Shown piece after piece: positions 2,038 through 20,264 of a DNA stretch of 30,507 nucleotides. Position numbers and translations under genes: made by a program. Source of the DNA: a virus (Duplodnaviria > Caudoviricetes); IMG/VR virus record IMGVR_UViG_3300003969_000002, positions 1 through 30,507 of that record, one strand, 5' to 3'. Within the stretch, counting starts at the first letter, position 1, and every line of letters starts with the position of its first letter. The notes under the pieces were generated by a model. The model ran no database searches, was not told the origin of the DNA, and worked only from the letters and a program-made list of their open reading frames with translations.

Positions 2038-2277
2038 TCAGGCAGGTGTGAAGTCCACATAGAACTTGTCGCCTACATTGAACTGACCGACAAGCGCTGG
2101 ATTGTTGATCGTCATTGTGAGGTCTGCAGAGGGTGTGTACATGGCGAAGGTGTTGTCTTCGTCAGCCCCACCTTCAGGGTAAGCACCGTCCTTGTAAACA
2201 GCGGCCAGCGTCAAACGCTCGCCTGTTTCGCCCTTTTGGACGTTGGTTACTTTCAGTTTTGCGCGCATTTTTGGCAT
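2038..2277 (-). CDS. Small phage hypothetical protein (79 aa)
   Basis: MRAKLKV...EDNTFAMYTPSADLTMTINNPAL...FYVDFTPA resembles a recurring small beta-rich phage protein; clean ORF ending at the terminator. Confidence 0.8.
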   Translation of the reverse strand: MPKMRAKLKVTNVQKGETGERLTLAAVYKDGAYPEGGADEDNTFAMYTPSADLTMTINNPALVGQFNVGDKFYVDFTPA

Positions 2278-2337: not shown

Positions 2338-3123
2338 TCAAAACAACCCCATGGGCTCCGCGTCCACGTCCCAGCTGCTGATGATCAGCTCCATGCGATC
2401 AACACCCTGCCCGCCTCCCACCGTGTACTTGATGGGCAGCGCCTCAATGTGGAAGCCCTCAAAGCAGCGCCGGATGTCTGGGTGGTCGTTGATGCTGAGC
2501 ATGGCCTTGCCCTTGATCTCGCGCATGAGCTTGGCCATGGCTTCGTATTCCTCCCATGGGAACGGCACGCCGTAGCCTTCCGTCTCCCAATAGGGCGGGT
2601 CCATGTAGAAAAAGGTGTGCGGCCGGTCGTACCGACGTATGCACTCTTTCCAGTCCAAGCGCTCGATGTACACGCCCTGCAGGCGCAACCAGGCGGTGCT
2701 CAGGTCCTGCTCGATGCGCATCATGTTGGGTGCTGGCGCCGTGGTGGCCGTACCCCAGCTCTGCCCCTGTACGCGGCCACCAAAGGCTTGGTGCTGCAGG
2801 TAGTAGAACCGGGCGGCCCGCTGGATATCGGTCAGCGTCTCACTGGGTGTGATCTGCGTCCACTTGAAGATCTCGCGACTGCTGAGCGCCCACTTGAACT
2901 GGCGCACGAACTCCTCCAAGTGGTTCTGCACCACCCGGTAGAGCGTGACCACGTCGCCGTTGATATCGTTGATGACTTCCACCTCTGCAGGTTGCCGAAG
3001 GAAGTAAAGGGCAGCACCGCCGGCAAAAACCTCCACGTAGCAGGTGTGCTGCGGAAAGCGGGGCAGGATGGTGTCGGCCAGACGGCGTTTGCCGCCCAGC
3101 CAGGGGATGATGGGAGATGCCAT
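2338..3123 (-). CDS. DNA N6-adenine methyltransferase (Dam/D12 class), orphan
   Basis: PWLGGK, motif I YVEVFAGGAA, VINDIN and catalytic DPPY; no cognate restriction enzyme nearby. Confidence 0.93.
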   Translation of the reverse strand: MASPIIPWLGGKRRLADTILPRFPQHTCYVEVFAGGAALYFLRQPAEVEVINDINGDVVTLYRVVQNHLEEFVRQFKWALSSREIFKWTQITPSETLTDIQRAARFYYLQHQAFGGRVQGQSWGTATTAPAPNMMRIEQDLSTAWLRLQGVYIERLDWKECIRRYDRPHTFFYMDPPYWETEGYGVPFPWEEYEAMAKLMREIKGKAMLSINDHPDIRRCFEGFHIEALPIKYTVGGGQGVDRMELIISSWDVDAEPMGLF

Positions 3124-3158
3124 GGTGAGGGCCTTTGGGTTGTGGTTAAACTTGGCCC

Positions 3159-3261
3159 GCCTCCCGGGAGGTGGCAGGGCCTTGGCTGGCTCACGGCGCT
3201 ATCGTGGATCGGCGGCTGGTCGGGGGTGTTAGTAGCACCACCGGTCGGTCGCCCTGTCTTT
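3159..3261 (+). ncRNA. Putative structured antisense RNA (three-way junction) in the methyltransferase leader
   Basis: P1 3173-3180/3251-3258, P2 3185-3213 and P3 3214-3250, with many G-U pairs that form only on the + strand. -10-like TAAACT at 3147-3152; short T run after P1. Confidence 0.6.
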
Positions 3262-3280
3262 ACACCAGGTGCAAAGACAG
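3254..3280 (-). promoter_or_regulatory. 27-bp near-perfect palindrome just downstream of the spanin stop
   Basis: CTGTCTTTACACC-A-GGTGCAAAGACAG; the single mismatch becomes a G-U pair on the minus strand. Confidence 0.55.
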
Positions 3281-3285
3281 ACTGG

Positions 3286-3822
3286 TCAGGGCTGCAGCTC
3301 CCTTACTTGGAGGGTGTCGGCTCTGCAGCTGGCGTAGGCGGTGTTGATGGCATCAGCTTCACTGGCCAGGCGCTGAAGTAGTCCAGTAAGCTCTGCTGAA
3401 AGTAACCCACCGGCTTCGGCTCCGTCTCCTGGACGATCTGGGGCGGGGGTGGCAGCTTCACCTTGGGCGCCACTACCACTGCCCCCACATCCTTGTGCGT
3501 TGGGGTCCCGCAGCCGGCCAGCAGGGCCAGCGAGCTGGCGCACACGGCCAGACAGAGCAGCAATCGTGTTTTGTGCTTGAGCATCTTTGTTGTCCTGGTT
3601 GAGTTTGAAGGTGCGCAGCGACTCCTCGGCTGCGCGGGTTTTAGCGATCTCGGTGGCCAGCACTTCGCTGGCTTCGCGCTTCTGAGCTTCCAGTGCGGCA
3701 GTGGCTTCAGCCTTGGCGCGGTCGTAGCCCCGCTGGTCGATGGCTTTGACACCGAAAAACAGACAGGCCAGCATGGCTATGAGTAGCGCCAGCACTACAC
3801 CGACTTTGACTAGCGGGCTCAT
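3286..3822 (-). CDS. Rz-like i-spanin
   Basis: One N-terminal TM segment, Ala/Glu/Lys-rich coiled coil, C-terminal Cys; directly follows the endolysin. Confidence 0.85.
   Translation of the reverse strand: MSPLVKVGVVLALLIAMLACLFFGVKAIDQRGYDRAKAEATAALEAQKREASEVLATEIAKTRAAEESLRTFKLNQDNKDAQAQNTIAALSGRVRQLAGPAGRLRDPNAQGCGGSGSGAQGEAATPAPDRPGDGAEAGGLLSAELTGLLQRLASEADAINTAYASCRADTLQVRELQP
3303..3584 (-). CDS. Rz1-like o-spanin lipoprotein embedded in the i-spanin gene
   Basis: ATG 3584 gives MLKHKTRLLLCLAVCASSLALLAGC (lipobox LAGC) and a Pro-rich mature part, in a different frame fully inside the Rz-like gene. Confidence 0.8.
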   Translation of the reverse strand: MLKHKTRLLLCLAVCASSLALLAGCGTPTHKDVGAVVVAPKVKLPPPPQIVQETEPKPVGYFQQSLLDYFSAWPVKLMPSTPPTPAAEPTPSK

Positions 3823-4433
3823 GCGATCGCCTCCCCTGCCAGCTCGGTCAAGTACTCCCGATCGGCAAGGCCGATCAAGCCGCCGTTCACTCGCTTGGTG
3901 ACTTTTTCAGGGTCGCCAAGCATGCTGTCGGGGATACGGTCTTCCCACCACAGGATGCAGGCCTCCAGTGCGAAACGGGGCTGCTCCAGCAGCTCAGGCA
4001 TGACGGTGAGGTCTTGCCCCATCAGATCGCCCACAAAGGCATAGTTGGCACGCCCTGTGATCTGGATCGGGGCGCGGCCTCGGAACCGCCAGCCGTCGCC
4101 CGGCTCCACGTTACCCATGCGGCCACCGTAGACCTTGTTGGCCAAGGCCTCAGGGTTGCGGGCGTAGGGCCGTGCATCGGCCAAAGTGGGGAAACGCGAG
4201 GACCAGACTTGGCACAAGCGCTCAGGGCTGTAGTTCAGGTTTTCACAAAACTGGCTAAGGCCATGGCTCTCATGCAGGATCTGGCCAAGGAAGTCATCAA
4301 GCTCGGCATCGCCCTGGCTAAAGCTGTCAGCTTTGATGACATCGGCAAAGACAACGGACCAGACAGCCGCGATCGTAGGCTTCACTTTGCAACGGATCAG
4401 GATCTGATTCCACTCTTGAGGTGTTCGATTCAT
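3819..4433 (-). CDS. Endolysin, glycoside hydrolase family 19
   Basis: FLGQILHES, ENLNYS, GDGWRFRGRAPIQITGRANY and VTKRVNGG motifs; ATG at 4433. Confidence 0.92.
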   Translation of the reverse strand: MNRTPQEWNQILIRCKVKPTIAAVWSVVFADVIKADSFSQGDAELDDFLGQILHESHGLSQFCENLNYSPERLCQVWSSRFPTLADARPYARNPEALANKVYGGRMGNVEPGDGWRFRGRAPIQITGRANYAFVGDLMGQDLTVMPELLEQPRFALEACILWWEDRIPDSMLGDPEKVTKRVNGGLIGLADREYLTELAGEAIA

Positions 4434-4435
4434 GG

Positions 4436-4756
4436 TCAACCTTCTTTCACTCGGGTGCGAACAATGAGGACTGCAAAGCCCAGCAGGACTGCCGTTTCAG
4501 CCAGTGATGGCTGGGTGTGGGACCACCAGCGCGCTGGCGTTTCTTGCAGACCCAGGGGATGCAGGAATGGACCAATGAGCCCGCCACCTGCGCCCATGGC
4601 AAGCAGCAGCCAAGCCAGCGCCTTGAGGCCGTCCACCAGGCGCTTGCGGGGGGTAAGGCCGGGGGCAAATGGAGCGGTACGCTCCAGCTTGTTCAAAGCC
4701 TCGGCCATAACCACAAAGGCCGCCAGCCAGTGCAGGATGAGCATCGCCGCGCTCAT
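4436..4756 (-). CDS. Holin/antiholin-like membrane protein (about 3 TM)
   Basis: ATG 4756 overlaps the upstream stop (ATGA); three hydrophobic stretches and a basic C-terminus; adjacent to the endolysin. Confidence 0.7.
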   Translation of the reverse strand: MSAAMLILHWLAAFVVMAEALNKLERTAPFAPGLTPRKRLVDGLKALAWLLLAMGAGGGLIGPFLHPLGLQETPARWWSHTQPSLAETAVLLGFAVLIVRTRVKEG

Positions 4757-18821: not shown

Positions 18822-20264
18822 TCAGTTTGCGATCAGGAATGTGCTGATGGAAAAACGAGCCTGCGGCGCTGCGCCGTTCGTAAAGCCCGCACGCATATAG
18901 CGCCAGCTGGGACGATGGATGATCTCCGCGTATTGACCCCCGCCAGCCACCGCTGCCGTTGGTACGGCTTTGATGCGTCGCCAGTTACTAGTGCCGTTCA
19001 GGCTGACTTCTAGCCATAGCGTTCCTGCCTGATCGCTTTCGGCGGATATGCGAACCTCTTTGGGGAATGTGCTGGCATTGTTGAAGCCAGTTCCACTTGC
19101 TGTGACTGTTATGTCTCGTGCTGTACCGGTAAAGGTTGCATTTGCAGCCAGTACGGTGGAACTATCGTCGTAACCAACCCCTGCAGAGGTGATAAATCCA
19201 ATACGCGCGGTGCTTGCGGCCAAACCTCCGGCATGGGTGATTGGCTGGTTACCGGTGACCTGCACGATTGGCACCGGCTCTGTAGCGTAGGTGCCCTGTT
19301 TAATGATGTAGGTTGCCGAGCCCGATGTATGGGCGGTGGCCCGAACGCGTATCCATTTGTACGCGTTAACAGACGCCTCCCAACCATAAGCAGGTGTCGC
19401 AGCCAATACGCCTGTGGCTGCGTCTGCTGTGTTGGCGTTGGAACGGGCGGCCTGAAAGTTGTACCAAGTCCCATCGCTGCCGTTTGTCGAGTTGTTGCTG
19501 TACTCGAAAATGGAGTTGTGCCCGACCAGAGAGGCGCCAACCATCGAAATAGTGACGTTGCTGGCACGGTCTACGTTGGCAAATACAGTCTGCCCGCTGG
19601 CTGAAATGACTCCAGTTGTGTCGGGGTAACTGGCGGGCTGACTGGATACCTTGAGTCGCGCATTCTCATCGAAGTTGAACCCTGCGTAGTCACCATCTGC
19701 AACGATGGTGGTGTCGCTGTCGCGTCGCTTTCCAAGAATGAAGATGCCCTTATCACCATCGCTGAAGGGGCTATTGGATGCGCGCACTGCGCTTGCCAGC
19801 GATGACCACTGCGACAAGCCGCGCTTGATCAAGGCGATGAGGCTGAAGGTGCCGCTGTCGTCAGTGGCCGGGGCGTTGTCGGGTTCGCCTAGGCTGGCTG
19901 CATTCACCGGCACAGGATTGGCACGGAGCTGCTGATCGGTAAGGCCGGGGGCCACCATGTTGGAGACGGTGACGTTCTCCAGCGCTGCCAGGCTGGGCGC
20001 GTCCAGCGCAACTGTGCCTGCAATCGCACCGGTGTTGACTGCGGTGGTTTTGGCGTTCAGTGCCTCGGCAGCTGCCTGGATGGCTTGCGCGGCGGTGAGC
20101 AGCGCGGTAACGGTTGCCTCGGTTGCCAGATCCAACGGCTGGCCGCTTGCAGGATCGACCACAGCGACAGCCTGAGTCTCCACCACATCCGGACCCTCGG
20201 TACGCGTGAACACGTCCACCTTGCGGGTGTTGTCTTCGGCGTCTTTAATTGGTACGTTGGACAT
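18822..20264 (-). CDS. Putative head fibre/decoration protein (480 aa)
   Basis: Located between capsid and connector genes; Ala-rich stalk followed by two related beta-rich modules. Confidence 0.65.
   Translation of the reverse strand: MSNVPIKDAEDNTRKVDVFTRTEGPDVVETQAVAVVDPASGQPLDLATEATVTALLTAAQAIQAAAEALNAKTTAVNTGAIAGTVALDAPSLAALENVTVSNMVAPGLTDQQLRANPVPVNAASLGEPDNAPATDDSGTFSLIALIKRGLSQWSSLASAVRASNSPFSDGDKGIFILGKRRDSDTTIVADGDYAGFNFDENARLKVSSQPASYPDTTGVISASGQTVFANVDRASNVTISMVGASLVGHNSIFEYSNNSTNGSDGTWYNFQAARSNANTADAATGVLAATPAYGWEASVNAYKWIRVRATAHTSGSATYIIKQGTYATEPVPIVQVTGNQPITHAGGLAASTARIGFITSAGVGYDDSSTVLAANATFTGTARDITVTASGTGFNNASTFPKEVRISAESDQAGTLWLEVSLNGTSNWRRIKAVPTAAVAGGGQYAEIIHRPSWRYMRAGFTNGAAPQARFSISTFLIAN

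What the first reader, a model, noticed from the sequence alone, without database searches (positions are those of the whole stretch)
3128..3261. Candidate antisense three-way-junction RNA controlling the phage DNA methyltransferase
Seen: the + strand folds almost completely. P1 is GGCAGGGC/GCCCUGUC (3173-3180/3251-3258), the junction is CUUG (3181-3184), P2 is GCUGGCUCACGG/UCGUGGAUCGGC (3185-3213), and P3 is GGCUGGUCGG/CCGGUCGGUC capped by GGUGUU-AGU-AGCACC (3214-3250). A small 5' hairpin lies at 3159-3172 and TAAACT at 3147-3152. About ten pairs are G-U, which would be A-C mismatches on the mRNA strand, so the folded strand is antisense to the late operon. AGGGCCTT occurs both at the junction (3176-3183) and 4 nt before the methyltransferase ATG (3128-3135), so the RNA is complementary to the ribosome-binding region as well as to its own template. 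Inference: an RNA repressor that silences or times methylation, conceptually like P1 C4 or P4 CI RNAs, in the position where Mu uses the Com protein to control mom. I cannot assign it to a known family.
Basis: partly seen in the sequence, partly recalled or inferred. Interest (0 to 1): 0.8.

Follow-up and report, generated by a model that had tools for sequence, protein, structure and literature searches.

The report
Two-strand RNA switch gating phage methylase
Just before this phage's DNA-methylase gene sits a conserved, uncatalogued control cassette found in many phages: one strand likely makes a small folded RNA, the other strand is predicted to fold back over the gene's start signal, and together they probably keep DNA-modifying enzymes off until late infection.

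Summary
The fold is real and far more than chance: 49 homologous leaders covary in all five helices (0/500 shuffles), G-U pairs outnumber A-C about 10:1 on the + strand, and a TAnnnT box precedes it in 163 of 168 variants. It defines an ~105-nt antisense RNA family with no Rfam match, found before 146 of 160 homologous methylase loci and in phiE125, B3, VP882, JD024, KS5 and 556 E. coli genomes. It also fronts com plus Mom-like or N6/N4 methylase genes, but not Mu itself. The conserved link is different: the P2 5' arm is recopied just before the next start codon (0/5000 permutations; 2/10000 in 15 held-out phages), so the mRNA's own leader can lock its start site. Folding predicts an open hairpin first, then the lock. 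Best reading: the antisense RNA represses the open form; activation is a live rival. Not a C4/CI member. No transcript evidence was obtainable. This scan found the element before on other DNA.

The parts
2338..3123 (-). D12-class DNA adenine methyltransferase, 261 aa, near the end of the late operon
   Evidence: PF02086 E 8e-22, phrog_56; 70% identical to phiE125 gp27 and B3 ORF48
3125..3136 (-). Translation start region: weak SD AAAGG (3136-3132) and spacer CUCAC (3129-3125), a copy of the P2 5' arm core
   Evidence: sequence; covariation with the P2 arm across loci
3147..3152 (+). Predicted -10 box TAAACT of the antisense promoter; no conserved -35
   Evidence: TAnnnT at this place in 163 of 168 variants against 3% background; missed by the consensus scan
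3159..3262 (+). Predicted antisense RNA, about 105 nt: 5' hairpin, three-way junction, short U tail; ends inferred
3159..3172 (.). P0 hairpin; 3160-3171 is a perfect 12-bp palindrome, loop included
   Evidence: perfect central palindrome of 6 bp or more in 99 of 102 representatives, 18 different central hexamers
3173..3258 (+). Three-way junction: P1 3173-3180/3251-3258, CUUG 3181-3184, P2 3185-3213, P3 3214-3250 with tip GUG-YU-NNN-R-CAC at 3226-3238
   Evidence: covariation in every helix; CUUG in 73 of 102
3184..3194 (-). Anti-start element of the mRNA: GUGAG (3194-3190) pairs with CUCAC (3125-3129) and GCC (3186-3184) with the SD (3131-3133); alternatively GUG pairs in the mirror hairpin with 3203-3206
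   Evidence: predicted: mirror 0.96 before the start region is made, lock 0.62-0.88 after; only about 1 bp with shorter segment ends
3154..3181 (-). mRNA hairpin M1 (GGCCC 3181-3177 with GGGCC 3158-3154 around P0) that would bring the lock strands together
   Evidence: fold; own pairing 4.06 bp against 3.73 permuted, 0/2000 for Watson-Crick pairs, 90/2000 with mRNA-side wobble
3255..3281 (-). Clade-specific hairpin just past the Rz stop, perfect on the mRNA strand, overlapping the RNA's 3' end
   Evidence: -12.6 against -8.6 kcal/mol; seen by eye in 6 of 7 close relatives printed
3286..3822 (-). Rz-like spanin, the gene upstream on the late transcript
   Evidence: phrog_2466 E 1.4e-5

Best explanation
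This is a portable two-strand control cassette in front of phage DNA-modification genes: the + strand likely makes a ~105-nt antisense RNA from its own promoter, the late mRNA's leader is predicted to be briefly open and then fold back over its own start site, and the antisense RNA most likely represses by catching the open form. Shown by comparison: the fold, its strand, the -10 box, the link to methylase/com/Mom-like genes, and the covariation of the P2 5' arm with the start region. Predicted by folding: the mirror P2 hairpin forms first and leaves the start free; once the start region is transcribed the lock wins by about 2-3 kcal/mol. Inferred: the RNA's two variable loops kiss their mirror loops, unzip the mirror hairpin so the lock closes early, and the long duplex is cut by RNase III. 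Leaky transcripts in the lysogen would thus be silenced, and enzyme would appear only when late transcription outruns the RNA pool.
For: Fold and strand. Promoter box. Association: RNA at 76 of 80 viral and 70 of 80 genome methylase loci; 37 of 38 RNA-first viral hits have the methylase behind them and the 38th ends in a com start; 7 of 8 RNA-first genome hits likewise, the eighth fronts an unrelated N6/N4 methylase; also before com plus Mom-like genes in JD024 and PAN70 and com plus N6/N4 methylase in KS5. Lock: shared word 5.48 nt against 4.44 permuted, 0/5000, 109 representatives, other RNA segments at background; 15 held-out named phages 2/10000 by word length and 0/10000 by energy; where P2 is mismatched the start region follows the 5' arm in 32 cells and the 3' arm in 9. 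Order of folding: mirror of 3 bp or more in 80 of 102 before the start region exists, lock in 62 of 102 after; blocking the upstream leader gives the lock in 74 of 102 against 31 with foreign start regions. Upper P2 and the P3 tip are 97% Watson-Crick, so their mirrors can fold, while lower P2 is 38% G-U. The EC958 copy (M.EcoMIV by elimination) is poorly transcribed and leaves no motif in the lysogen (PMC4659465, passages). Mom is harmful and strictly late (PMC3299994, passages). A cis lock plus a two-loop antisense RNA plus RNase III is the aapA1/IsoA1 design (PMC8167048, passages).
Against: No transcript, start site or strand was shown: only assembled contigs were served. A complete RNA-mRNA duplex removes the lock and raises start-region accessibility (0.50 against 0.43; window 0.48-0.61 against 0.42), so the thermodynamic end point is unlocking unless the duplex is cut. 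The lock core was found in only 60 of 90 loci, against 41% with foreign start regions. At G-U positions 19 cells fit only the RNA's 3' arm. The window's lock probability depends on segment ends (against 129). Permutation tests do not remove shared ancestry. Com genes without the RNA exist (RsoM1USA, Smp131, Mu). EC958 silence is already explained by the late operon being off. Toxicity of this methylase family is untested.
Confidence: 0.5

Rival explanations
2. The RNA pairs directly with the start region, using the P2 3' arm after strand exchange or the 8-mer the first reader noted.
For: 3' arm to start region -7.4 kcal/mol own against -6.0 foreign, own better in 79 of 102; one Comamonadaceae-type subgroup fits the 3' arm better by eye.
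Against: The mRNA's own anti-start strand pairs better (-9.7; stronger in 70 of 102) and wins at mismatch positions 32 to 9. The 8-mer is unique to the window. Whole-RNA duplex with own leader beats foreign in only 58 of 109. Loops show no complementarity to the start region.
Confidence: 0.1
3. The RNA works through a protein or as a dimer (for example binding the methylase, Com or a host factor via the invariant P3 tip and the palindromic 5' end), and the mRNA lock is a separate layer.
For: Invariant G and C at the P3 tip, U-G/C-A closing pair and CUUG junction exceed what antisense pairing needs. P0 is a perfect palindrome in 99 of 102, with homodimer -25.6 against hairpin -3.6 kcal/mol.
Against: The RNA accompanies three unrelated enzyme families and occurs with and without com, so no single phage partner is constant.
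Confidence: 0.12
4. Only the promoter matters (collision with late transcription at the start region), or the element acts only as an mRNA leader or as DNA.
For: The promoter overlaps the start region (12-46 nt from the first codon in 131 direct loci); no expression data.
Against: Two-sided covariation over 86 nt with G-U bias on the + strand and a U tail means the + strand product is selected.
Confidence: 0.05

Closest known systems
Type I toxin-antitoxin control, notably Helicobacter aapA1/IsoA1 and aapA3/IsoA3 (PMC8167048, passages)
   Same: Two layers on a harmful gene: the mRNA hides its own SD, and a cis antisense RNA with two loops meets one conformer; this is what it most likely works like.
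   Different: The cargo is a 250-aa DNA-modifying enzyme or Com inside a phage late operon, not a small toxin; the lock is about 60 nt upstream, not a 5'-3' end pairing; the RNA is a three-way junction and does not overlap the start codon.
Phage Mu com-mom, and com plus methylase operons of B3, FluMu, Pnm1 (PMC3299994, passages)
   Same: Same genomic role: late, tightly held DNA modification; com follows the RNA in 30 of 161 placed variants and in B3, JD024, PAN70, KS5.
   Different: Mu has no copy of the RNA and uses a dedicated late promoter; the window has neither com nor Mom. The lock covers the first gene's start, com where present.
P1/P7 C4 and P4 CI RNAs (Rfam RF01695)
   Same: Small phage RNA with a three-way junction and two variable loops.
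   Different: No model match either way; opposite strand to its target with its own -10; loops have no second target boxes nearby; target is a modification gene, not ant/icd/kil.
Plasmid countertranscripts such as CopA/CopT, ColIb-P9 Inc, pT181 RNAI (recalled, not tested by reading)
   Same: Antisense to a leader, not to the start site; acts by changing the leader's fold; 6-7 nt loops above an interrupted stem.
   Different: No Rfam match; phage late operon; strict YUNR in only 50 of 102 P3 loops (hand count).
Fremin 2023 candidate viral RNAs upstream of D12 methylases (PMC10690425, supplement tables)
   Same: Seven candidates list a D12 methylase downstream; DNAVirus_549 is 85 nt, about the size of the junction.
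   Different: Of the five whose rows I read, hosts are Ruminococcus, Novosphingobium, Desulfuromonadales or unassigned marine, none Burkholderiales; alignments were unreadable, so overlap is not excluded.

Membership tests
C4/CI antisense RNA (RF01695) | Match to the Rfam model | tested here: not met
   No hit in the window or in 8 other loci; the same library finds P4 CI at 74.9 bits; model R1 does not hit P4
C4/CI antisense RNA (RF01695) | Three-way junction with two exposed loops | tested here: met
C4/CI antisense RNA (RF01695) | Loops complementary to separate target boxes flanking the RNA gene | tested here: not met
   Loop matches in own 900-nt flanks, either strand, no better than in foreign flanks
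C4/CI antisense RNA (RF01695) | Cut from the same transcript as its target (recalled feature) | tested here: not met
   G-U bias and own -10 put it on the strand opposite the target
C4/CI antisense RNA (RF01695) | RNase P maturation (recalled feature) | not testable with these tools
   no end-mapping data; the RNA ends in a U-rich tail
Type I toxin-antitoxin | Antisense RNA overlapping the mRNA leader | tested here: met
   layout and covariation; transcript itself not shown
Type I toxin-antitoxin | mRNA hides its own ribosome-binding site | tested here: met
   covariation and folding; computational only
Type I toxin-antitoxin | Small toxic peptide in a two-part locus | tested here: not met
   cargo is a 261-aa PF02086 enzyme in a late operon
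Type I toxin-antitoxin | Growth arrest on loss of the RNA; RNase III cleavage | not testable with these tools
   needs bench work
Mu com-mom | Com zinc-finger gene before the modification gene | tested here: not met
   no such ORF between 3123 and 3286; present in 30 of 161 placed variants
Mu com-mom | Mom-family enzyme | tested here: not met
   window enzyme is phrog_56, Mu Mom is phrog_1384
Plasmid countertranscripts | Rfam match and a replication-initiator target | tested here: not met
   target is a methylase
Plasmid countertranscripts | YUNR U-turn in the recognition loop (recalled feature) | tested here: inconclusive
   YU start is general, strict YUNR in 50 of 102 P3 loops (hand count); mRNA-side loops not scored
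Leader peptide / small ORF | Conserved reading frame in the element | tested here: not met
   ORF lengths scatter and junction-to-tip distance falls in all three frames, 39/35/28

The most novel reading that the evidence does not exclude
A new, widespread class of phage RNA timer: one 150-bp module encodes a bistable mRNA leader and a structured antisense partner whose arm is a copy of the start site, so it can be dropped in front of any DNA-modification gene (D12 methylase, N6/N4 methylase, Mom-like, Com) and decide when the phage epigenetically armours its DNA, possibly as an RNA key that replaces or gates Com, with the palindromic 5' end adding dimer- or protein-based sensing.
Probability: 0.35. 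Interest if true: 0.82.

Novelty: new variant of a known kind. Interest (0 to 1): 0.66.

Why it matters
Prophage methylases are usually silent in lysogens and how phages without Mu's promoter circuit time them is open; PMC3299994 could only presume Com-type control. This cassette gives a concrete, testable answer that spans named model phages (B3, VP882, KS5, phiHAP-1, JD024) and 556 of 5426 complete E. coli genomes. It adds an uncatalogued RNA family with unusually clean two-strand covariation, a natural test bed for how one sequence encodes a switch on one strand and its regulator on the other.

Tried and rejected
8-mer target: chance. Loop-loop pseudoknot between P2 and P3: 607/2000 and 1605/2000 permutations as good. 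Loops, junction or P0 pairing with the start region: background. Remote loop targets within 900 nt: background. Small ORF in the element: not conserved. Rfam: none at gathering score in the window or 8 other loci, only unrelated weak hits by E-value. Weinberg's Burkholderiales-1 motif: different sequence, and no D12/COG0338 mention in that paper's 8 searched supplements. Expression: 20 RNA runs hold a Burkholderia-type copy (L255) but only as assembled contigs, which show no strand, ends or level. B. cenocepacia J2315 start-site tables: BcepMu was not among the phage hits to the phiE255 region and I could not place a copy in that strain, so the tables were not used. Promoter/terminator consensus scan found nothing. 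The forced-pair folds were off by one base and are disregarded; one search repeats them correctly. Loci without a hit: L004, L025, L064, L072 (L072 looks degenerate by eye) and 10 genome loci, 2 of which have under 90 nt of upstream DNA. Class-wide genome sample: 7 of 151 genomes, one being the seed genome, with limited candidate scoring.

Full report
Context. The window is a 30.5-kb virus record with terminase, capsid, contractile tail and lysis genes all on the minus strand and an integrase on the plus strand. The late operon runs through a GH19 endolysin (3819-4439) and an Rz-like spanin (3286-3822) into a 162-nt gap and then a D12-class adenine methyltransferase (2338-3123). No com gene lies in the gap.

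Observation. The + strand fold has 40 pairs, 11 of them G-U. Alone it is unremarkable for this GC content (z -1.40). The 8-mer AGGGCCTT does occur twice.

Comparative test of the RNA. A sequence-only alignment of 49 leaders (the window plus 48 of the 80 viral loci, near-duplicates and the four without a hit left out) gave the same structure by RNAalifold and, for 38 named pairs, 89.7% paired cells against 76.8% shuffled with 0/500 shuffles reaching any measure. A model built from it hit 76 of 80 viral loci, 28 of the 32 not in training, and 70 of 80 genome loci, where pairing was 93.8% (fitted alignment, about 8 rows repeat training sequences). G-U cells outnumber A-C cells 529 to 53 and 372 to 47, fixing the folded strand as antisense to the late mRNA. 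A TAnnnT box precedes the 5' hairpin in 163 of 168 distinct variants (background 3%), often with G two bases upstream; no -35 is conserved. A U-rich tail follows P1. No reading frame is conserved.

What it travels with. Searching from the RNA side, 37 of 38 viral hits have the D12 methylase behind the RNA and the last ends in a com start; of 8 genome hits 7 do, and one fronts an unrelated N6/N4 methylase. Among 161 variants with both box and methylase placed, 131 are direct (12-46 nt from the first codon) and 30 have a longer gap, all 30 holding a Com zinc finger. All 10 more distant named phages that I fetched carry it, VP882, phiHAP-1, MuM16-1, AM106 and S1 among them (27-80 bits). Of 6 further com-bearing phage records, phiE255, KS5, JD024, PAN70 and Mcat6-type loci hit, in front of an ABC ATPase, an N6/N4 methylase, two Mom-like genes and a phrog_56 methylase; RsoM1USA, Smp131, Mu and P4 did not. 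One variant matches 556 of 5426 complete E. coli genomes. The EC958 chromosome has two PF02086 genes, dam and this prophage gene, so the latter is M.EcoMIV by elimination, reported as poorly transcribed and without a motif (PMC4659465, passages).

The junction word recurs in the own leader in 1 of 156 loci, the window; own and foreign leaders share similar word lengths (5.84 against 5.62) and duplex energies (own better in 58 of 109); 12.7% of shuffled window leaders give such a repeat. Five of the eight bases are buried in P1. It is chance.

The conserved link. The P2 5' arm reappears, same sense, in the mRNA just before the first downstream start codon, whether methylase or com: CUCAC, UUCAC, UUGCA, UUCGC, GACAC and AUGCC types match their own start regions (5.48 nt against 4.44 permuted, 0/5000, 109 representatives; other segments at background). 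Fifteen named phages not used before confirm it (2/10000 and 0/10000). Two pairings could explain this: the mRNA's copy of the arm's complement, or the RNA's P2 3' arm. At positions where P2 is mismatched the start region follows the first in 32 cells and the second in 9; at G-U positions 92 fit both and 19 only the second; energies are -9.7 and -7.4 kcal/mol (core placed in 60 of 90 loci, 41% for foreign pairs). So pairing within the mRNA is favoured, not exclusive. Upper P2, the P3 tip and P0 are 96-97% Watson-Crick, while lower P2 is 38% G-U and 14% mismatched: the mirror loops can form on the mRNA while the lower arm is left free for the lock. In the window the mirror hairpin has probability 0.96 until the start region is made, then the lock takes over at 0.62-0.88, 2-3 kcal/mol ahead; with shorter segment ends the lock was weak. 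Across 102 representatives the mirror holds in 80 before and the lock in 62 after. These permutation tests do not remove shared ancestry.

How it most likely works. Shown: fold, strand, promoter box, gene link, arm-to-start covariation. Predicted: a leader that is briefly open and then locks. Inferred: the antisense RNA, made in the lysogen, kisses the two mirror loops of the open form, hastens locking and marks the mRNA for RNase III, so enzyme appears only when late transcription saturates it (0.5). The analogy is the two-layer control of type I toxin mRNAs, in particular aapA1/IsoA1 (PMC8167048, passages), and the need is that of mom, which is harmful and late (PMC3299994, passages). Against it, a complete duplex removes the lock in folding, which keeps activation alive (0.23). 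Direct pairing (0.10), protein or dimer function suggested by the invariant tip and the palindrome (0.12) and promoter interference alone (0.05) are the other readings. Expression could not be checked: runs were served only as contigs.

Known families. No Rfam family matches, while the library finds P4 CI as a control. It fails C4/CI membership on model, strand and target boxes, fails type I toxin-antitoxin membership on cargo, and is not Mu com-mom. I found no description in ten full-text searches (listings seen), nor in term searches of PMC5737381 (main text only; supplement too large), PMC2864571 (passages and 8 supplements), PMC11109978, PMC8632094, PMC3091744, PMC4603805 and PMC12197685 (passages; section 9 read whole). 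PMC10690425 lists seven candidates near D12 methylases; its alignments and coordinates were unreadable, so DNAVirus_549 or another candidate may overlap this family. Most subscription papers are not searchable. Details of CopA, ColIb-P9, pT181, YUNR and RNase P processing of C4/CI are recalled. The scan's own notes show eight earlier reports of what appears to be this element on other genomes (a look-up by sequence found none); I saw them after deriving the lock, and they prompted the check on Mu and Mom-like genes.

Verdict. A real, widespread, apparently undescribed RNA cassette; new variant of a known kind of control; direction of action untested. Interest 0.66.

Noticed in passing
window 3160-3171 and family: The 5' hairpin is a perfect palindrome through its loop in 99 of 102 representatives, with 10 different central 4-mers and none of the all-A/T ones; a hairpin alone would not need this. 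Unexplained.
   Followed up: partly
window 3255-3281: A hairpin perfect on the mRNA strand overlaps the RNA's 3' end in the window's clade and replaces the long U tract; it competes with P1 on the + strand.
   Followed up: partly
L257:808-1322 (phiE255): The cassette fronts an unannotated com followed by a 54-aa ORF and an ABC-type ATPase gene instead of a methylase.
   Followed up: partly
L173:97-1629: The RNA lies about 150 nt from a 419-aa N6/N4 methylase and just after an ORF that looks like a Q antiterminator (by eye; no Pfam hit).
   Followed up: partly
L171:52-578: Eight evenly spaced CRISPR-like repeats lie about 100 nt past the end of the methylase gene in a bacterial genome.
   Followed up: no
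L082:2073-2298 (phage B3): Annotated tiny ORFs B3ORF45 and B3ORF46 overlap the RNA and may be annotation artefacts.
   Followed up: no
L172, L175: One genome carries two copies of the cassette with a frameshifted methylase, each near a transposase-like ORF.
   Followed up: no
L222:1-955 (phage Bise): The cassette follows a reverse transcriptase gene directly.
   Followed up: no
window 2038-2277: A 79-aa ORF after the methylase matches only the C-terminal end of phrog_6978 (unknown function).
   Followed up: no
window 18822-20264: A 480-aa ORF with no Pfam hit sits between capsid and head-tail connector genes.
   Followed up: no
window 3303-3752: A lipoprotein-like ORF in another frame is nested in Rz, as expected for Rz1.
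   Followed up: no
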